Source: a phage. Taken from it: a stretch of 64,000 bases of DNA. Shown piece after piece: positions 8,558 through 62,674 of the stretch (the first letter of the stretch is position 1; every line of letters begins with the position of its first letter). The stretch lies in sequence record PZ445450.1; one strand, given 5' to 3'. A program made the translations under genes and the position numbers. The notes beneath the pieces were generated by a model. The model worked only from the letters and a program-made list of their open reading frames with translations. It ran no database searches and was not told where the DNA came from.

Positions 8558-8923
8558 ATGGAACAAATGAACGATCAAGCGTCGGTTGCGATGAACGAGC
8601 AAGAACAACCTCAAGAATTTTTCTTAGGGTTAAGTAAAGATCAAGTGTCTCTTTTGCTAGTGCTTTCTTCTTTCATGGGAAGACTTCAGGAGCTCACACA
8701 ACAACCGGAGGCTGAACAATTATTTCAGGCTCTGCGTGAAGAAGAAAAATATCGTCGTTTGGACTATGCCTTAGGTTGGGTAGCTCAACAACGAGATATG
8801 CTGATGGCCCTCTCTGGGACCACAAGTTTTGCAATGGGCCTGTTGGCTCAAGTTCAGGACAAATTAATTCAAGCAGGGTTTGCACACACGGCAAACACTA
8901 ACGAAGAACAAGGAGACAAATAA
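8558..8923 (+). CDS. Hypothetical protein
   Basis: GGAGA RBS. Confidence 0.5.
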   Translation: MEQMNDQASVAMNEQEQPQEFFLGLSKDQVSLLLVLSSFMGRLQELTQQPEAEQLFQALREEEKYRRLDYALGWVAQQRDMLMALSGTTSFAMGLLAQVQDKLIQAGFAHTANTNEEQGDK

Positions 8924-10152
8924 TGAGCGTTATTCAACAATTCGCTAACCCGATGAATCCGCGTGAAACTGTTTTACTGGCTCACGGCATGATTAAACGC
9001 GTCAGCATCAAGCCTATCAAAGGTGCTGATCCTACAACAGGTATTAAAACCACTGTGTGGCAAGGTAAGAAAATTGAGTCCAGCCACACCATCTCTTTAC
9101 TGATTTCTGAACTGGATTCCTCTGATAACCTGCTTCAAGGTGGTGAAGAAGTCTGGATCAGCATGGGTGATAAACTGCTTAAACCGGGTCATCAAGACTC
9201 TGTCTCTGTTAAGATTGATGACAAGTGGGAAACCGTAACGCCAGGATGGATCGTAAATATCCCTTTGAAGGCAAACGAGCATAACGGTAAGACCTACTAC
9301 AAAGGCTCACTGGCTAAGATGGTTAAGCTGGGCGCAGGAGAGGCTCCAGCAGCGACTCAGCAGCAAAAACAGCAACAAGGTGCACAATCACAAGGCCAGA
9401 AGCAGAAACCTCAGCAGAATGCCAATCAGGACGTTTTACGCATCTATGGTGATGTGACTCAGATTGTTGGCAACGTGGTTACTGTAAATGACCACAAGAT
9501 TGGCGAAGGTGCTATGGTTGTAACTGATGAGCAGCTTAAAGACCTGGTGGTAGGCGGTCGTGTTGCAGCCATTGTGGACAAAGACACCGGAAACATTATC
9601 AGTGGTTTCAAAGCCTACCCACCTAAGGCAGAGAACGGCACTCAAGGCCCTGGTGGCAAGCGTAAATCCTCTTACGACCCTATTGGTGTGGAGACGGGGC
9701 ATAGCATCAATGCGTTGCAGATCATCCTGGATCGTGGGTTTAAGGTAGACGACCCACTAGGCGTGGCTAAAACACTGCACGTAGTCACCATCGAGCTTAA
9801 GAAAGAGTATGCTCAAGCCACCAACCGAACTGAAGATGAAGTAGGTGCCAGTGTCGGTAATGCGGTGTTGAACGCTTGTCGCCGTATTGACAAGAAAACG
9901 AAAGTTGATGATTTTGCAGCGGCAATTACTGCAGAAGCAAAAGATGTTTTGACTAATCTGGCTGAGCCGTTGTACGATTGGATCAAGAACGGTGCTGAGT
10001 CCACTGACCATCAAGAACCTCAAGCTGCCAAACAGGAAGAAGCCGCTCCACAGCAAAACACTGTAGACGCCCCTCCTGTAAATGATGAGGAAGATGACCC
10101 GATGGATCAGAATCCAGCACAGTACGCCTTTGATGATGACATCCCTTTTTAA
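8923..10152 (+). CDS. Putative ssDNA-binding protein with host-SSB-like acidic tail
   Basis: Gln/Gly-rich linker and C-terminus DDDIPF, identical to the E. coli SSB tip; the N-terminal fold is not verified. Confidence 0.5.
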   Translation: MSVIQQFANPMNPRETVLLAHGMIKRVSIKPIKGADPTTGIKTTVWQGKKIESSHTISLLISELDSSDNLLQGGEEVWISMGDKLLKPGHQDSVSVKIDDKWETVTPGWIVNIPLKANEHNGKTYYKGSLAKMVKLGAGEAPAATQQQKQQQGAQSQGQKQKPQQNANQDVLRIYGDVTQIVGNVVTVNDHKIGEGAMVVTDEQLKDLVVGGRVAAIVDKDTGNIISGFKAYPPKAENGTQGPGGKRKSSYDPIGVETGHSINALQIILDRGFKVDDPLGVAKTLHVVTIELKKEYAQATNRTEDEVGASVGNAVLNACRRIDKKTKVDDFAAAITAEAKDVLTNLAEPLYDWIKNGAESTDHQEPQAAKQEEAAPQQNTVDAPPVNDEEDDPMDQNPAQYAFDDDIPF

Positions 10153-10167
10153 CATCTAGTCAACATG

Positions 10168-10198
10168 GCCCTGCCCGAAAGGGTGGGGCATTTTTGTA
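10168..10198 (+). terminator. Rho-independent terminator
   Basis: Same hairpin as at 19-46, followed by a T-tract. Confidence 0.65.
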
Positions 10199-10214
10199 TA
10201 AGGAGATCTGAAAA

Positions 10215-10631
10215 ATGACATTAGAAGATATCATTGTTAAGCCTGAGAACTATGACCAATACAACCTGTCAACTCAATCTGTAGACCTTGGATGCGCCAC
10301 GGTCAGTGCGTGGCTGGTTAACGGAAAAGAGTTGGATAAATGCTTGGAAGCCCACATGTCTGTTAACAAGTTCCTGGATGAAAACACTCACTGGCTTGAG
10401 GGTGCAGGCGTATATGCTTCATGGTTGGAGAGTATGGGATTCGACTACCAATCTGAAGAGGGGTGGTGGAGCTATTTAGCTATCTGCCCAGAGACGCTAC
10501 AATGCTTCATGAAATATTCTGAAGATTTGGAGTACCGTGCGGTGGTTGATAGTGCTATTGCCCGTTATAGCCGTAAACCTTTTTCCCACGACATTAAAAC
10601 TGTGGAAGAATTTGTTGAAGTTTTCTGTTGA
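10215..10631 (+). CDS. Hypothetical protein
   Basis: AAGGAGA RBS; 138 aa. Confidence 0.55.
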   Translation: MTLEDIIVKPENYDQYNLSTQSVDLGCATVSAWLVNGKELDKCLEAHMSVNKFLDENTHWLEGAGVYASWLESMGFDYQSEEGWWSYLAICPETLQCFMKYSEDLEYRAVVDSAIARYSRKPFSHDIKTVEEFVEVFC

Positions 10632-10727
10632 CACGGATTGAAAGGTGTGCAATTATAACTTCATAGAACGGGAGGACGTGATGAACGAAGAAAACTGGGA
10701 TGTATAACTAACAGGAGGCCACTGCCC

Positions 10728-10925
10728 ATGATTTATCGAATCCGTGTAAGAGAAGATGCACCAGGCTGTTACTTTGACTGGCGTGGGTGGTGGTTTCTCC
10801 ACCCGATGGATGGACTCACAGATAGAATGCTGGATGCTGCCCTTTATACAGATACCGATATAGAATATAATCTCTATCTGAAGGACGGTATAGATAACGG
10901 TCTATTTGAAGCAATTCCTGTGTAA
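10728..10925 (+). CDS. Hypothetical protein
   Basis: AGGAGG RBS. Confidence 0.5.
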   Translation: MIYRIRVREDAPGCYFDWRGWWFLHPMDGLTDRMLDAALYTDTDIEYNLYLKDGIDNGLFEAIPV

Positions 10926-10993: not shown

Positions 10994-11419
10994 ATGATCT
11001 ATGAAATGCCAAAACTGATTCGTGACGATGCCCAAAACGCTCACACCATTATTATGGGCAAACGCATGGATATTATTTGTCATAAAGATTTCTGGGAAGG
11101 AAGTTACTTCACAGAGTATTTTGGTAAACTGGACAATGGTCTGCTGATCCAGTTCTACACCGATGCGGAAAACAACATTCACTGGGAGTTCGAAACTGAA
11201 GATATCCATAAACTTTTCACCTTCCTCGGTATTAAGGTTGAGGCCAAGTTTGAAGAAGGTGAGTGCGACGATTGTGGATTCTATGAGGTAACAGATTTCT
11301 ACCTTCCAAGTGGTAAAAATCTCTACTACGAAAGCCACTTCGGCAACTCAAATATGCCACAGGGTTGGGATGAGTTTTTGGAAATTGCAGAAGAGGAGCT
11401 GGAATACCGTGATTATTGA
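10994..11419 (+). CDS. Hypothetical protein
   Basis: GGAGA RBS; 141 aa. Confidence 0.5.
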   Translation: MIYEMPKLIRDDAQNAHTIIMGKRMDIICHKDFWEGSYFTEYFGKLDNGLLIQFYTDAENNIHWEFETEDIHKLFTFLGIKVEAKFEEGECDDCGFYEVTDFYLPSGKNLYYESHFGNSNMPQGWDEFLEIAEEELEYRDY

Positions 11420-11867
11420 TACTGTAAAGGGAGATCTAATCTCCATTTTCAAGAAAGGGTCAGGCCACATGATCCACGGTTGTAACTGCTTTCACACAAT
11501 GGGTGCAGGTATAGCGAAAGATATTGCCCGTGAGTTCCCTCAAGCACTGGCAGCCGACAAAGAGACTGCTTATGGTAATCTAGACAAGCTGGGTATGTTT
11601 TCTTGTTGGGAGCATTTTGCCAAGGCCAGGGTCGTATATGGAATCAACCTGTATACCCAGTTCTACCCAGGGCCCAATGCTGAATACTTCTCAATCATGA
11701 AAGGTTTTGAGCGAGTCAACGAGGTATTCAAAGGTATGTCATTGCCGTTCTACATTCCTAAAATCGGATGCGGTATTGGAGGTCTAAAGTGGGAACATGT
11801 AGAAGATGTAATTAATCTTGCAACCACAGATATTGATGTGGTTGTAGTAGAGTACAAAAAGTGTTGA
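11409..11867 (+). CDS. Macro-domain (ADP-ribose-binding/processing) protein
   Basis: GDLISIF..HGCNCFHTMGAGIA and IPKIGCGIGG glycine motifs; start set at GTG 11409 after GAGGAG RBS. Confidence 0.6.
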   Translation: MIIDTVKGDLISIFKKGSGHMIHGCNCFHTMGAGIAKDIAREFPQALAADKETAYGNLDKLGMFSCWEHFAKARVVYGINLYTQFYPGPNAEYFSIMKGFERVNEVFKGMSLPFYIPKIGCGIGGLKWEHVEDVINLATTDIDVVVVEYKKC

Positions 11868-11872
11868 CGACC

Positions 11873-11901
11873 ATCTTCTGAGGTGATATAGTTTCCACAA
11901 C
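11873..11901 (+). promoter_or_regulatory. Sigma70-like promoter
   Basis: TTGACG, 17 nt spacer, TATAGT. Confidence 0.45.
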
Positions 11902-12317: not shown

Positions 12318-12345
12318 TTGACATCTGAAAACTGCAGTGTATAAT
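12318..12345 (+). promoter_or_regulatory. Sigma70-like promoter
   Basis: TTGACA, 16 nt spacer, TATAAT. Confidence 0.55.
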
Positions 12346-58821: not shown

Positions 58822-59535
58822 TTAAATATACTCTGTTACATCCTTGAAGCTCGAAGGCTTCATAATCTTACCTTTACTGTCAAGGAATATAATAACTTTA
58901 TTGCCGTTGTAGAACTCCTCTTTAGCAACGAAACCTTCGTAGCGACCACCAAAACGACGCTCAAGATCTTTAATCTCCAACTCGATGAGTTGTTCAGCAG
59001 GCATATCTGCACTGGCACCGTGTGAATGCCGTAGATGGTTGATCCGTGCAAACTTACTGTCATTAGATTTTAGAACCTTCCGCATCATCCCACACACATC
59101 CCCGCTAAGCTGGAACAGTAAAGCTGTTGATAACTCCGCTAGTCGGTAAGCTGACGCTCTTTGCTTGGATGTGTTTTTCGCAGCGATCAGTGTATCATAG
59201 AACTCACCGATCTTGAACTTAAGACCTCGCGGATTATCAAACAGGTTTGACCACTTTTCGTGGTTATCATTAACAAGATAAGCTGCATAACTTGTGACAA
59301 CGTGAAGATCGCAGGCCTCTTTTAGCAGGTGATCTCCACCATCACCTTTCTCCAGCTCTTCCAAAACCTCATTGAACTCTTCCTCAATGAAGCTAAGCTG
59401 TAATTCGAATGGTGTGTATGATTTTTTCACTTTAGCTGCCACACGGTTCCAGTTTTCCACCCAGTTGGCAGACCAAAGGTAGTTTTCAGGCTGGGACAGT
59501 TTTTCCAGGTTGTCGATCAGTTTAGTATTCAGCAT
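58822..59535 (-). CDS. MazG-like nucleotide pyrophosphohydrolase (putative)
   Basis: FIEEEFNEVLEELEKGD fits the E..E...E..D all-alpha NTP-PPase motif; remainder unassigned. Confidence 0.35.
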   Translation of the reverse strand: MLNTKLIDNLEKLSQPENYLWSANWVENWNRVAAKVKKSYTPFELQLSFIEEEFNEVLEELEKGDGGDHLLKEACDLHVVTSYAAYLVNDNHEKWSNLFDNPRGLKFKIGEFYDTLIAAKNTSKQRASAYRLAELSTALLFQLSGDVCGMMRKVLKSNDSKFARINHLRHSHGASADMPAEQLIELEIKDLERRFGGRYEGFVAKEEFYNGNKVIIFLDSKGKIMKPSSFKDVTEYI

Positions 59536-59548
59536 TAAAGGTCTCCTT

Positions 59549-60310
59549 TTAAAGTTCCATAAAGTTTTCTACAGTTTCAATAAATGCTTTATCAGAGAAA
59601 GCGTCAACAGCACCGTTAAACCATACAGGGATCCCGCGATCCTCATATTGATAAAGGTCGCTACGTGAAATGCCACTTCCATCTGCACTCTGCGAATCAT
59701 ACTTGTTTACAATCAGCAGTTTTGTGCCTTTACAAGTAGCAGGAAACAATTCCCAGTTAAAATTAATAACTGTGTTAGAACAACCTACCAGGATCACCAT
59801 ATCATTGCTTGTGAGAGATGTCAACAGGTCATACATGTCTGTATACTTAGGAGCAACCTCACCGAAGAACACTACATTGGGCTTAACCCAGGTATACTTG
59901 CCTGTATCTACCTCCGTGTATCCGATATTTTTAATTACATCATTACCTTCAGCATCTTCGTAGGTGATTTCAGGCAAATACCCGTGGACATGTAAAATAT
60001 CTTCATGTTTTACACCAGCACGCTCCAGCAAATCATCTACATTGGTAGTAAGGTTGATCACACGACCAGACCAGCGGGAATACCACTCAGCGATCCGAAG
60101 ATGTGCAAGGTTAGGATCAACACTGCCCAGAGCTACACGACGTGCATTGTAAAAGTCATGCACCTTATAGTAGTTCTTGGCAAAGGTGTGGATGTTGCAC
60201 ACCTCATCGATGCTGAAATTCTCCCACATTGCAGTGCTACCAGATCGGAAAGTGGGAATACCAGATTCAGCGCTCAAACCAGCACCGGAGATAATAATCA
60301 GTCGTCGCAT
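59549..60310 (-). CDS. Sir2 (sirtuin) family NAD-dependent enzyme
   Basis: GAGLSAESGIPTFR, TTNVDDLLERAG, HVHG, PNVVFFGE and VGCSNTV motifs; no CxxC...CxxC zinc module. Confidence 0.75.
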   Translation of the reverse strand: MRRLIIISGAGLSAESGIPTFRSGSTAMWENFSIDEVCNIHTFAKNYYKVHDFYNARRVALGSVDPNLAHLRIAEWYSRWSGRVINLTTNVDDLLERAGVKHEDILHVHGYLPEITYEDAEGNDVIKNIGYTEVDTGKYTWVKPNVVFFGEVAPKYTDMYDLLTSLTSNDMVILVGCSNTVINFNWELFPATCKGTKLLIVNKYDSQSADGSGISRSDLYQYEDRGIPVWFNGAVDAFSDKAFIETVENFMEL

Positions 60311-60318
60311 AAGTGTCC

Positions 60319-60699
60319 TCAGTAGATGTTTTGTTTAATCTCTATTCCAAACTTCTTGAATGAGTCAGCAGCAAGCATAAATTTACGAGCTGCCGATGGA
60401 TTAGAAGTATGCACGAAAATAATCACGTTGTCAATAAGTGGTGGCTTTCCGAATACAAGTTTCTCCTCTAGCGCAGAGAAGCAGTCGTACCCTTCAAGCA
60501 CTTCACCTAGATCATTGTCAAAATGCCACTCAGAAACGCTCCTGTAGAGCTTTCTATTATCGTTAATAAAATCCATGAACTCAGAAGAGTTCTTCAGCCA
60601 AAGAGCATCTTGGATTCCGTAATTTGACGGATCTCTCAAGTCATCTAGCCACACAATCAACTTCTTCATTGCATATAGTCCTCGTTGTGAAAATAGCAA
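60319..60699 (-). CDS. Hypothetical protein
   Basis: 126 aa ORF lying between the Sir2 and ligase-like genes. Confidence 0.45.
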   Translation of the reverse strand: MLFSQRGLYAMKKLIVWLDDLRDPSNYGIQDALWLKNSSEFMDFINDNRKLYRSVSEWHFDNDLGEVLEGYDCFSALEEKLVFGKPPLIDNVIIFVHTSNPSAARKFMLAADSFKKFGIEIKQNIY

Positions 60700-61583
60700 T
60701 CAAGTATCTCACGGCGTTCCTGCTCCAGGAGGCAGTTCCACACATCTTCTGTGTAATTGCTACGAATGAAGTTTACCATGCCATAAAACTCTTCGTCAAT
60801 ACGTTTAAAGATATCATCATCCCAAATCTTCCAAGCTTTACCCCTCATTACGGCCTTCCGTGCCAAATAGTATGGAGACTTGATCTTCAGCTGCAGGTCA
60901 TAAGGGTAGTAAGGCTTACGGATCATATACCCTTCGCCCCTTGTTTCTGCAGCTAATTCTTTTGCATAGCTGAACGGGATTTCACGCACAGTGTGAGGAC
61001 GTTTTGCACCAAGGTATTTGGCAATTCCATCTAAAGCTGCTTCTGGTAGCATTATTCCAGAATCATTATATCTGCAACCTATCAAATATGCGCCATGGTC
61101 TTCTTGAACAATATGCGGATCTGAAGGGTGACAAATTTCAAACATGAATGTCATGTTTTCATTGCCCATAACCTTCTTGATAAGATCTAAATTACCACAT
61201 TGCTCTTGGATGGTTTCCTTTGCAAGGTTACAATATGGAGAATCAAGAGACCCGGTTGTTGAGAACAATAGGTCACCTTTATGAGATGATACCACACCAA
61301 GGAATCCGTTCTTTTTCTCTACCGCAGTCACAAGCTTATTGTCAGGCAGGTTGGTGGAGTTTTCTCCCAAGTTAAACACTTTTGTGAAGGGCCATGCCAC
61401 AACATTTCCTTCATTACCTACAACAATGCCTCGGCACTCCAGTAAACGAGGGGACAAATGCCATAAATTGTTGTAAAATACTTTTCTAGCATATTTATAG
61501 ATCTTTAACCCGAGATCTGGGTAATACCTACTGGTTACAAGACCTTTGTCAACTAGGTCGTCTGCATTAAAATACTTCATCAT
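60666..61583 (-). CDS. RNA ligase-like nucleotidyltransferase (Rnl2-like motifs)
   Basis: Motif I VEKKNGF (KxNG), motif IV EGYMIRKPYYP, motif V LKIKSP, compared with T4 Rnl2 EKIHGTN / EGYVLKP / IKCKN; GAGGA RBS. Confidence 0.55.
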   Translation of the reverse strand: MMKYFNADDLVDKGLVTSRYYPDLGLKIYKYARKVFYNNLWHLSPRLLECRGIVVGNEGNVVAWPFTKVFNLGENSTNLPDNKLVTAVEKKNGFLGVVSSHKGDLLFSTTGSLDSPYCNLAKETIQEQCGNLDLIKKVMGNENMTFMFEICHPSDPHIVQEDHGAYLIGCRYNDSGIMLPEAALDGIAKYLGAKRPHTVREIPFSYAKELAAETRGEGYMIRKPYYPYDLQLKIKSPYYLARKAVMRGKAWKIWDDDIFKRIDEEFYGMVNFIRSNYTEDVWNCLLEQERREILDCYFHNEDYMQ

Positions 61584-61701
61584 ACGTTCCTCATTTGTCA
61601 TTTTGTCAGTCTATCCTGTCACACAAATAACCTAGTGTCAACACTTGAAATTAACAAAACAGTTAGATATACTATCGTTGAAATTAAAACGGAGGGTCAC
61701 T

Positions 61702-62112
61702 ATGTCTAAAATGCTATATATCGTGCGTGGTCTACCAGGGTCTGGCAAATCAACACTGGCAAATGCGCTATCTTTAGAGGGTCTGTATCCACATTTTGAG
61801 AAAGACATGTTCTGGTATGACGATGACGGCAATTACAACTGGGATGCAAGTAAAGTAACACTCGCAGCGAAATGGTGCAAAGATAACGTAGAAGATATGA
61901 TGCGTATGGGATACGACCGTATCGTGGTAAGTAATACGTTTACAAAAGAAAAACATGTGCAGGAATATGTTGACATGGCAATCAGTCATGGGTATAGTTA
62001 TACCGTGATCGTGGTTGAAAACCGCCACGGTAATAAAAGCATTCATGATGTTCCAGACAAGGTTGTGGATCGTATGGAACGCCAGCTTAAAAACTGCATT
62101 AAACTTAAATGA
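61702..62112 (+). CDS. Polynucleotide 5'-kinase (T4 Pnk kinase-domain-like)
   Basis: P-loop GLPGSGKST; VVSNTF matches Pnk IISDTNL; VPDKVVDRMERQL matches Pnk VPIDVLRSMYKSM; GGAGGG RBS. Confidence 0.7.
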   Translation: MSKMLYIVRGLPGSGKSTLANALSLEGLYPHFEKDMFWYDDDGNYNWDASKVTLAAKWCKDNVEDMMRMGYDRIVVSNTFTKEKHVQEYVDMAISHGYSYTVIVVENRHGNKSIHDVPDKVVDRMERQLKNCIKLK

Positions 62113-62119
62113 GGAATGT

Positions 62120-62674
62120 ATGAAATACTTTGTAACAAGCGACACACACTTTCTCCACCAGCGGGTCATGGAGTTTGATTCATGTCAAAAACACAGATCT
62201 CAGTATGATCACAATCTTGACAGTATGAATGCGGGAATCATCGCCGAATGGAACTCTGTTGTGTCACCTGCAGACACTGTGTTCCACTTGGGAGATATTG
62301 CGTGCACTAATGATAAGAATATCAACAACTTACTTCCAGATATTCTAAATATGTTGAACGGACATATTATTCTTGTTCGTGGCAACCATGACACAAGGAC
62401 GACTGTCAGAATTATGAAAGAGTTCGGTCATGAGGTTGTAGATTATTACGAGCTTCGCCACAACAAGAATTTGATCTGTATGAGCCATTACCAATTTGCA
62501 AAGTGGAACAGAAAGCCTCACGGATCAGTCCAACTGTTCGGTCATGCTCACGGAACCACACAACAGTTGTTTGGCAGGCAGCTTGATGTCGGTTGGGATG
62601 TGTGGGGGAGACTCTTACCATTAGAAGAGGCATACCGTATTGCAATGAGTTTTGCTATTGACAGCGGGGAGTAA
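62120..62674 (+). CDS. Calcineurin-like metallophosphoesterase
   Basis: VTSDTHF, HLGDI, RGNHD and GHAH motifs; GAGGAA RBS; start refined to ATG 62120. Confidence 0.75.
   Translation: MKYFVTSDTHFLHQRVMEFDSCQKHRSQYDHNLDSMNAGIIAEWNSVVSPADTVFHLGDIACTNDKNINNLLPDILNMLNGHIILVRGNHDTRTTVRIMKEFGHEVVDYYELRHNKNLICMSHYQFAKWNRKPHGSVQLFGHAHGTTQQLFGRQLDVGWDVWGRLLPLEEAYRIAMSFAIDSGE

What the first reader, a model, noticed from the sequence alone, without database searches (positions are those of the whole stretch)
11409..11867. Macro-domain protein among early genes
Macro domains bind or hydrolyse ADP-ribose derivatives. An early-expressed phage macro domain could remove host ADP-ribosylation, degrade ADP-ribose-derived signalling molecules, or process the product of the phage Sir2 protein encoded at 59549-60310.
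Basis: partly seen in the sequence, partly recalled or inferred. Interest (0 to 1): 0.45.

Follow-up and report, generated by a model that had tools for sequence, protein, structure and literature searches.

The report
Phage macrodomain, likely anti-DarT eraser
This rV5-like E. coli phage gene really does encode a macro-domain enzyme, and it is an untested relative of phage T4's Tk.4/AdfM, which was recently shown to protect T4 from a bacterial defence (DarTG2) that blocks phage DNA by attaching ADP-ribose to it.

Summary
Bases 11409-11867 (+) encode a 152-aa stand-alone macrodomain: Pfam Macro scores above its cut-off, PHROG 335 matches at E 7e-60, the AlphaFold model has pLDDT 93, and dN/dS among relatives is 0.1-0.2. 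The window comes from a Vequintavirus (rV5-like) E. coli phage, whose relatives already annotate this gene as 'macro domain', 'Poa1p-like' or 'phosphatase'.

The most likely function is therefore removal of DarT2-added ADP-ribose from thymidines in phage DNA. This rests on homology, not on any test of this protein. The catalytic lysine of DarG and TARG1 is replaced by a glutamine (Q84), invariant in the family alignment and also present in T4 Tk.4. SCO6735 has an essential glutamine at this position.

The proposed link to the phage Sir2 gene is not supported. Sir2 is real but lies 48 kb away on the other strand, and T5 carries Sir2 without any macro homologue. Early expression is plausible from the sigma-70-like promoters but has not been shown.

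Verdict: a new member of a known kind, of modest interest.

The parts
11409..11867 (+). Coding sequence of the 152-aa stand-alone macrodomain protein (GTG start, TGA stop). It is a homologue of T4 Tk.4/AdfM.
11393..11398 (+). GAGGAG Shine-Dalgarno, 10 nt upstream of the GTG start and inside the 3' end of the upstream ORF
   Evidence: read directly from the sequence
11475..11489 (+). H23-G-C-N26-C motif. N26 aligns with the ADP-ribose-contacting Asn of DarG (N22 in T. aquaticus DarG). It is invariant in the family.
   Evidence: N22 and K80 as DarG active-site residues from PMC13309987
11499..11516 (+). Gly-rich loop 1 (M31-G-A-G-I-A36), the diphosphate-binding loop of macrodomains
11646..11660 (+). 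N80-L-Y-T-Q84. Q84 occupies the position of the catalytic Lys of DarG (K80) and TARG1 (K84), and of the essential Gln85 of SCO6735. It is invariant in the 73-sequence family alignment and is also present in T4 Tk.4.
   Evidence: PMC9411070
11757..11783 (+). Gly-rich loop 2 (P117-K-I-G-C-G-I-G-G125). The position of TARG1 Asp125 is Gly here, as in DarG.
10994..11419 (+). Upstream 141-aa ORF of unknown function (PHROG 8157). Its stop overlaps the macro start by 11 nt, so it is probably co-transcribed and translationally coupled. It is not related to T4 Vs.
10628..10656 (+). Sigma-70-like promoter match (TTGACA-17-AATTAT with extended -10 TG) upstream of the transcription unit. A consensus match only.
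10843..10871 (+). Second sigma-70-like promoter match (TTTATA-17-TATAAT) upstream of ORF 10994. A consensus match only.

Best explanation
The gene encodes a stand-alone ADP-ribosyl glycohydrolase of the TARG1/DarG/SCO6735 ('ALC1-like') macrodomain class. It is the Vequintavirus counterpart of T4 Tk.4 (AdfM, anti-DarT factor macrodomain).

Proposed mechanism:
1. The gene is transcribed, probably early, from host-type promoters.
2. The protein binds the ADP-ribose that the host DarT2 toxin attaches to thymidine N3 in single-stranded phage DNA at replication forks and transcription bubbles.
3. It hydrolyses the ribose-base bond, releasing ADP-ribose and restoring unmodified DNA.
4. Phage replication proceeds despite the DarTG2 defence.

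Catalysis probably follows the lysine-independent, Gln-dependent route described for SCO6735, because Q84 replaces the DarG/TARG1 lysine. The protein has no DarT-binding C-terminal domain, so it would act mainly as an enzyme and not as a stoichiometric antitoxin.

Shown here: the fold, the class, the motif conservation, the homology to Tk.4 and purifying selection. Inferred: the substrate (thymidine-ADPr DNA), the anti-DarTG2 role in this phage, the catalytic role of Q84, and early timing.
For: (1) The protein is 39% identical to T4 Tk.4 over its full length (E 6e-44). In the other direction, Tk.4's only significant hit in the window is this gene.

(2) Deleting tk.4 makes T4 sensitive to DarTG2, and Tk.4 was named AdfM (bioRxiv 10.1101/2025.11.20.689424). 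[quoted passage not shown]

(3) The only hit in the defence-protein library is DarG (PADLOC, E 8.8e-13). The best NCBIfam hit is antitoxin DarG (E 4.8e-12). Both cover the N-terminal macro half, and both score better than T4 Tk.4 itself does.

(5) PMC9411070 argues that reversing thymidine ADP-ribosylation is a unifying activity of this class, shown for DarG, TARG1 and SCO6735.

(6) Invariant residues include N26 and the N-x-Y-T-Q84 motif. The profile alignment places Q84 on SCO6735 Gln85, which is essential (Q85A is inactive), and on the Mtb DarG catalytic-lysine position.

(7) T5 is DarTG2-sensitive and has no homologue. T4 has one and is resistant unless it is deleted.

(8) The gene is conserved across Vequintavirinae and found in 2,733 phage records, with dN/dS 0.1-0.2.
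Against: No experiment exists for this protein or for any Vequintavirus. The T4 evidence is genetic only and comes from a preprint, and T4 Tk.4 is only 39% identical.

The catalytic lysine that defines DarG and TARG1 is absent. The role of Q84 is extrapolated from one enzyme, SCO6735.

The protein is near neutral (pI 6.5), unlike the strongly electropositive SCO6735 surface described in PMC9411070.

SCO6735 and TARG1 also hydrolyse protein-linked ADP-ribose, so DNA may not be the only or the main substrate.

A bacterial homologue examined (Pelagimonas) has no DarT neighbour.
Confidence: 0.68

Rival explanations
1. It is a broad or different-target ADP-ribose eraser. On this view its main job is to reverse ADP-ribosylation of proteins or RNA by other host ADP-ribosyltransferase toxins or defences, or by phage enzymes, and not DarT2-modified DNA.
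For: Class members TARG1 and SCO6735 hydrolyse Glu/Asp-linked protein ADP-ribose as well as thymidine-ADPr (PMC9411070). The family is very widespread in phages, with 2,733 records across many host genera. That may be wider than the need for DarTG2 counter-defence alone. The Gln-type active site matches SCO6735, the member with the broader substrate range.
Against: The only functional data for a close homologue (T4 Tk.4) point to DarTG2 as a single significant hit. No ADP-ribosyltransferase domain was found in 40 Pfam-scanned ORFs of 115 aa or more in the window, though only 64 kb of a genome of about 136 kb is covered. No specific alternative target is identified.
Confidence: 0.15
2. It is a small-molecule ADP-ribose derivative hydrolase. 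Candidates are an ADP-ribose-1''-phosphate phosphatase (Poa1p-like, as the GenBank 'phosphatase' labels imply) or an O-acetyl-ADP-ribose deacetylase that clears the product of the phage Sir2. The latter is the first reader's third idea.
Against: Sir2 is 48 kb away on the opposite strand. Sir2 homologues are concentrated in T5-like phages, and T5 has Sir2 without any macro homologue. T4 has Tk.4 but, from established knowledge of its gene content, no Sir2. The Pfam scans of the window found no 2'-phosphotransferase (Tpt1/KptA-like), which would be needed to generate Appr>p. T4-type Pnk/Rnl1 repair does not produce that metabolite (established knowledge). The 'phosphatase' label is an inherited annotation and not a test.
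Confidence: 0.1
3. It binds or degrades an ADP-ribose-derived immune signal, such as Thoeris gcADPR or His-ADPR, and so acts as a sponge or signal-degrading enzyme.
Confidence: 0.04

Closest known systems
T4 Tk.4 = AdfM (anti-DarT factor macrodomain; HIDEN-SEQ preprint 10.1101/2025.11.20.689424)
   Same: Both are stand-alone phage proteins of about 155 aa, 39% identical over the full length (E 6e-44). They share the HGCNC, NLYTQ(F) and P-x-IG-x-GIG motifs, including Gln84. Both match the macro half of the DarG models.
   Different: The phage family differs (Vequintavirinae against Straboviridae), and there is no synteny. T4 tk.4 follows vs, while here the upstream ORF is unrelated to Vs. The function has not been tested for this protein.
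Chimallivirus AdfM (PhiKZ gp104 and relatives; PMC13309987)
   Same: Phage-encoded stand-alone DarG2-like macrodomain. It has been shown to remove DarT2-added ADP-ribose from DNA and to protect against DarTG2.
   Different: PhiKZ AdfM keeps the DarG-type catalytic lysine (N23/K78), whereas this protein has Gln84. PhiKZ AdfM is imported into a phage nucleus, and no phage nucleus is known for rV5-like phages (own knowledge).
Streptomyces coelicolor SCO6735 (PDB 5E3B) and Bacteroides BT1257 (2AFC/2FG1)
   Different: Identity is only about 23-24%. The DNA-contacting lysines K34 and K89 of SCO6735 are not conserved (A33 and G88 by alignment). This protein is near neutral (pI 6.5), and it is bacterial there but phage here.
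DarG antitoxin of DarTG2 (M. tuberculosis 5M3I, T. aquaticus 5M31/5M3E)
   Different: There is no C-terminal DarT-binding domain. The score of 45.8 bits is far below the 250-bit equivalog cut-off. The catalytic Lys is replaced by Gln. There is no adjacent DarT.
Yeast Poa1p (ADP-ribose-1''-phosphate phosphatase, PDB 6LFQ-6LFU) and human TARG1/OARD1
   Different: TARG1's Lys84/Asp125 dyad is absent (Gln84 and Gly). The pathway that would supply Appr-1''-p was not found in the window.

Membership tests
Macro domain superfamily (Pfam PF01661) | Profile match above the curated gathering score | tested here: met
   26.2 bits against a cut-off of 22, E 8.2e-6, covering profile positions 1-117 of 118
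Macro domain superfamily (Pfam PF01661) | Three-layer alpha/beta/alpha macro fold | tested here: met
Macro domain superfamily (Pfam PF01661) | Conserved ADP-ribose-binding elements: Asn after strand 1 and two Gly-rich loops | tested here: met
   N26, M31-G-A-G-I-A36 and P117-x-I-G-x-G-I-G-G125 are invariant or nearly so, and align to the same elements in DarG, TARG1 and SCO6735
ALC1-like / TARG1-DarG-SCO6735-Poa1p macrodomain class | Closest solved relatives all belong to this class, clearly separated from the MacroD, viral, PARG and macroH2A classes | tested here: met
ALC1-like / TARG1-DarG-SCO6735-Poa1p macrodomain class | Catalytic lysine (TARG1 K84 / DarG K80) | tested here: not met
   The position is Gln84, invariant in 73 family members and also Gln in T4 Tk.4. 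This matches the SCO6735/BT1257 subclass (Gln85).
DarG antitoxin (NCBIfam NF048014 equivalog; PADLOC DarG) | Full-length match including the C-terminal DarT-binding domain | tested here: not met
   Only model positions 2-144 of 338 match. The score is 45.8 bits against a cut-off of 250. The protein is 152 aa.
DarG antitoxin (NCBIfam NF048014 equivalog; PADLOC DarG) | Encoded next to a DarT toxin gene | tested here: not met
   The neighbours are phage ORFs with no Pfam family, and they fall in PHROGs of unknown function
AdfM (phage anti-DarT factor, macrodomain) | Phage-encoded stand-alone DarG2-like macrodomain homologous to a characterised AdfM | tested here: met
   39% identity over the full length to T4 Tk.4/AdfM, E 6e-44. 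It is the only such gene in the window.
AdfM (phage anti-DarT factor, macrodomain) | Removes DarT2-added ADP-ribose from DNA, and is required for phage growth on DarTG2 hosts | not testable with these tools
   Needs plaque assays with a deletion mutant and an in vitro de-ADP-ribosylation assay. The only indirect support is that T5 lacks a homologue and is sensitive, while T4 has one.
SCO6735-type (Gln-dependent) thymidine-ADPr hydrolases | Gln at the catalytic position following the central beta-strand | tested here: met
   The profile alignment places N-a-Y-T-Q on SCO6735 N-M-I-G-Q85 and on BT1257. In the model, strand E74-84 ends at Q84.
SCO6735-type (Gln-dependent) thymidine-ADPr hydrolases | Extended mobile loop and electropositive DNA groove (K34, K89) | tested here: inconclusive
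   K34 and K89 are not conserved by alignment (A33, G88). The pI is 6.5. Model coordinates could not be inspected.
Poa1p-like ADP-ribose-1''-phosphate phosphatase | Phosphatase activity on Appr-1''-p within a Tpt1-dependent RNA pathway | not testable with these tools

The most novel reading that the evidence does not exclude
The Tk.4/Vequintavirus branch of phage macrodomains, with its invariant Gln in place of the DarG/TARG1 lysine, may be a mechanistically distinct, lysine-independent class of counter-defence enzyme. Like SCO6735, it could have a wider substrate range, covering thymidine-ADPr DNA plus protein- or RNA-linked ADP-ribose. On this reading it would neutralise several ADP-ribosylating defences and not only DarTG2, which might explain its presence in about 5% of sequenced phage genomes.
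Probability: 0.15. Interest if true: 0.5.

Novelty: new member of a known kind. Interest (0 to 1): 0.27.

Why it matters
If the inference holds, rV5-like phages, which are often considered for therapy and biocontrol of E. coli, carry a ready-made enzymatic counter to the DarTG2 DNA-ADP-ribosylation defence. That would help predict their host range on DarTG2-positive strains.

It would also extend AdfM from T4-like and nucleus-forming phages to a third major group. And it would show that phage AdfMs come in two active-site types: a Lys type in PhiKZ and a Gln type in T4 and rV5. That difference can be tested directly with Q84A and Q84K mutants.

The finding does not open a new kind of biology. 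The gene is already annotated as a macrodomain, and its likely role was published for homologues in 2025-2026.

Tried and rejected
- **Sir2 coupling.** I checked the position and strand, the distribution of Sir2 homologues, and the full T5 genome for a macro homologue. T5 has none: the best HMM hit is E 0.012 on a 61-aa ORF that overlaps annotated genes on the opposite strand, and tblastn finds nothing at E 1 or below. The idea is rejected for lack of linkage.
- **Synteny with T4.** The upstream ORF is unrelated to T4 Vs. All neighbours belong to unknown-function PHROGs.
- **Bacterial context.** The Pelagimonas homologue P0061 is stand-alone with no DarT nearby, so it gives no guilt-by-association support.
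- **Partner enzymes in the window.** Pfam scans of 40 ORFs of 115 aa or more found no ADP-ribosyltransferase, NADAR, Nudix, NAMPT or Tpt1 domain. Smaller ORFs and the remaining roughly 72 kb of the genome were not scanned.
- **Expression timing.** No Vequintavirus transcriptome paper was found. The promoter scan is suggestive only: 21 sites against 13.4 +/- 4.5 expected.
- **Literature gaps.** The Poa1p structure paper and the original DarTG phage-defence paper are not in the searchable library. No paper tests DarTG2 on Vequintavirinae.
- **Alternative start at 11310.** Rejected in favour of 11409 (see the observation check).
- **Model inspection.** Coordinates are not exposed, so the placement of Q84 rests on profile alignments and secondary structure.

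Full report
**1. The observation**

The + strand carries an ORF from GTG 11409 to the TGA at 11865-11867, encoding 152 aa. The mechanical ORF list starts it at an upstream GTG (11310), but that start would overlap the preceding ORF by 110 nt. The 11409 start is supported by several lines of evidence:
- A GAGGAG Shine-Dalgarno lies at 11393-11398.
- T4 Tk.4 aligns from its residue 1 to 11409.
- Four Vequintavirus relatives have the same GTG and the same N-terminus.
- GenBank records annotate the same 459-nt CDS.

The start overlaps the stop of ORF 10994-11419 by 11 nt, which suggests translational coupling.

The macro-domain call is sound. Pfam Macro scores 26.2 bits against a gathering score of 22. 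PHROG 335 matches at E 6.8e-60. Among four relatives, dN/dS is 0.10-0.22 even where dS is about 1.1. GC content equals that of the window, at 43%. It is the only macro domain in the window.

**2. Where the window comes from**

The region is 95-98% identical to many Vequintavirus (rV5-like) E. coli phages. The protein is identical to bas59_0089 of phage EduardKellenberger, apart from how the GTG start codon is translated. In those records the gene is labelled 'macro domain protein', 'Poa1p-like family protein' or 'phosphatase'. The bare observation is therefore already in the databases.

The gene sits in a long co-oriented block of small unknown ORFs downstream of the DNA polymerase gene.

**3. 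What kind of macrodomain it is**

Sequence searches against solved structures return only one class: SCO6735, BT1257, DarG from M. tuberculosis and T. aquaticus, TARG1/C6orf130, and Poa1p.

PADLOC's only hit is DarG (E 8.8e-13), and NCBIfam's best hit is antitoxin DarG (E 4.8e-12). Both cover only the N-terminal macro half, and the score of 45.8 bits is far below the 250-bit equivalog cut-off. The protein is therefore a DarG-like macro module without the DarT-binding domain. It is not a DarG.

**4. The key homologue**

tblastn finds homologues in 2,733 of 50,697 phage records. In T4-like phages these sit next to the vs gene, which is the position of tk.4. A direct comparison with T4 Tk.4 gives 39% identity over the full length, E 6e-44.

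The literature search shows that Tk.4 has recently acquired a function:
- A transposon screen of T4 on a DarTG2-expressing host gave tk.4 as the single significant hit. A clean knockout made T4 sensitive to DarTG2, and the authors renamed the gene adfM (bioRxiv 10.1101/2025.11.20.689424).
- Earlier work had shown that T4 lacking its NADAR factor remains DarTG2-resistant, which predicted another factor. The same work showed that some Vequintavirinae (Bas60-62) carry a NADAR anti-DarT1 factor (PMC11825919).
- No paper tests a Vequintavirus macrodomain or DarTG2 against this phage group.

**5. Active site**

In the family alignment G24, N26, C27, M31, G34, A36, D50, N80, Y82, T83, Q84, P117, G120 and G122 are invariant. 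The N-x-Y-T-Q motif is found in 101 of the 120 listed homologues.

The profile-to-structure alignments place N26 on the DarG Asn. They place N-x-Y-T-Q84 on SCO6735 N-M-I-G-Q85 and BT1257, and on M. tuberculosis DarG N-F-P-T-K. T4 Tk.4 has the same NLYTQ.

In DarG (K80) and TARG1 (K84) this position is the catalytic lysine. In SCO6735 it is Gln85. The Q85A mutant is inactive, and a water-mediated, lysine-independent mechanism was proposed for it (PMC9411070). PhiKZ AdfM, by contrast, keeps the lysine (K78). TARG1's Asp125 position is Gly here, as in DarG.

The protein therefore fails one defining feature of DarG and TARG1, but it matches the SCO6735 subclass, which is active on thymidine-ADPr DNA. 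I could not inspect model coordinates, so the placement of Q84 rests on alignments and on strand E74-84 ending at Q84.

**6. Mechanism proposed**

1. The gene is expressed from host-type promoters. Sigma-70-like sites lie at 10628 and 10843, after a terminator-like hairpin at 10168.
2. The enzyme binds ADP-ribose attached by DarT2 to thymidines in single-stranded phage DNA.
3. It hydrolyses the linkage, so replication continues.

The fold, class, motifs and homology are shown here. The substrate, the in vivo role, the role of Q84 and the timing are inferred.

There is weak correlative support. T5 is DarTG2-sensitive and has no homologue in its whole genome.

**7. Rivals**

(a) *A broader or different ADP-ribose eraser acting on protein or RNA.* This is plausible because TARG1 and SCO6735 also act on proteins. 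There is no specific evidence for it, and no ADP-ribosyltransferase was found in the scanned ORFs.

(b) *A small-molecule hydrolase (Poa1p-like phosphatase or O-acetyl-ADP-ribose deacetylase serving Sir2).* The structural similarity to Poa1p is as strong as to DarG, and the HxCNC motif is shared. Against this:
- Sir2 (59549-60310, minus strand; PF02146, E 6.9e-28) is 48 kb away.
- Sir2 homologues are mostly in T5-like phages.
- T5 has Sir2 without a macro homologue.
- No Tpt1-type enzyme was found.

(c) *A binder or degrader of immune signals.* The only support is the general ability of macrodomains to bind such ligands. The structural match to ThsA is much weaker.

**8. Comparison and novelty**

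By sequence the closest characterised protein is T4 Tk.4/AdfM. By active-site type the closest are SCO6735 and BT1257. By demonstrated biochemistry the closest are chimallivirus AdfM and DarG.

The protein is best filed as an untested AdfM-family member in a third phage group. The small added point is that T4/rV5-type AdfMs are Gln-type while PhiKZ-type are Lys-type. It is not a new kind of system, and the gene's domain identity is already annotated.

I score interest at 0.27. The most novel reading not excluded is a lysine-independent, broad-spectrum ADP-ribose eraser that counters several defences (probability about 0.15).

**9. Limits**

- All functional statements are by homology.
- The T4 evidence is a preprint.
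- Only 64 kb of the genome was available.
- Early expression is unverified.

Noticed in passing
window 58822-62671: A cluster that looks like an RNA-repair/NAD module. On the minus strand: a MazG-like nucleotide pyrophosphohydrolase (58822-59535; PHROG 671), Sir2 (59549-60310), a cREC_REC 'cyclic-phosphate processing receiver' domain protein (60319-60699; PF20274, E 6e-14), and a T4 Rnl1-type RNA ligase (60666-61601). Divergently on the plus strand: an AAA_33/Zeta-toxin-like kinase (61645-62109) and a calcineurin-like phosphoesterase (62015-62671). Together these resemble a split Pnk plus ligase tRNA-repair set placed next to Sir2.
   Followed up: partly
window 10152-10215 (compare L001 6159-6737): Many relatives (bov10K2, MaxBurger, slur16, I29) carry an endonuclease VII / homing endonuclease gene of roughly 580-620 bp between the 409-aa gene and the 138-aa gene. 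The window lacks it and has only a terminator-like hairpin at 10168-10189.
   Followed up: no
window 12318-12345 (+) and 11864-11892 (+): A perfect sigma-70 consensus (TTGACA-16-TATAAT, 12/12) lies at 12318, and an extended -10 promoter-like site starts inside the macro stop codon at 11864. Such sites are spread through this block of small ORFs, consistent with host-RNAP early transcription.
   Followed up: partly
BFVD matches to the model of window 11409-11867: The best viral structural match is a Marseillevirus LCMAC103 'SNF2 subfamily protein' (39% identity, TMq 0.93). A Marseillevirus uracil-DNA-glycosylase-macro fusion also hits. Several phage homologues are 240-260 aa long, with an extra domain (Acinetobacter phage 133 Tk.4, Erwinia MM7 gp101, SUSP2). 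Fusion to DNA-acting domains fits a DNA-directed role.
   Followed up: no
window 11409-11867 versus L003 24535-24993 (phage I29): Vequintavirus macro alleles fall into distinct identity bands in tblastn: 38 records at 95% or more, 54 at 80-90%, and 78 at 60-80%. The I29 allele differs from the window's at dS of about 1.1 with dN/dS 0.11. This suggests old, exchanged alleles and not recent drift.
   Followed up: partly
window 8923-10152 (+): A 409-aa conserved protein (PHROG 4477, unknown function, no Pfam hit) has a long Gln/Lys-rich low-complexity linker and an acidic C-terminal tail. It lies just upstream of the macro transcription unit. The acidic tail is reminiscent of single-stranded-DNA-binding proteins, but this was not tested.
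   Followed up: no
window 1-64000: ARAGORN found no tRNA genes in the window. Pfam found no NADAR domain among the ORFs of 115 aa or more that were scanned, although some other Vequintavirinae (Bas60-62) carry a NADAR anti-DarT1 factor.
   Followed up: partly
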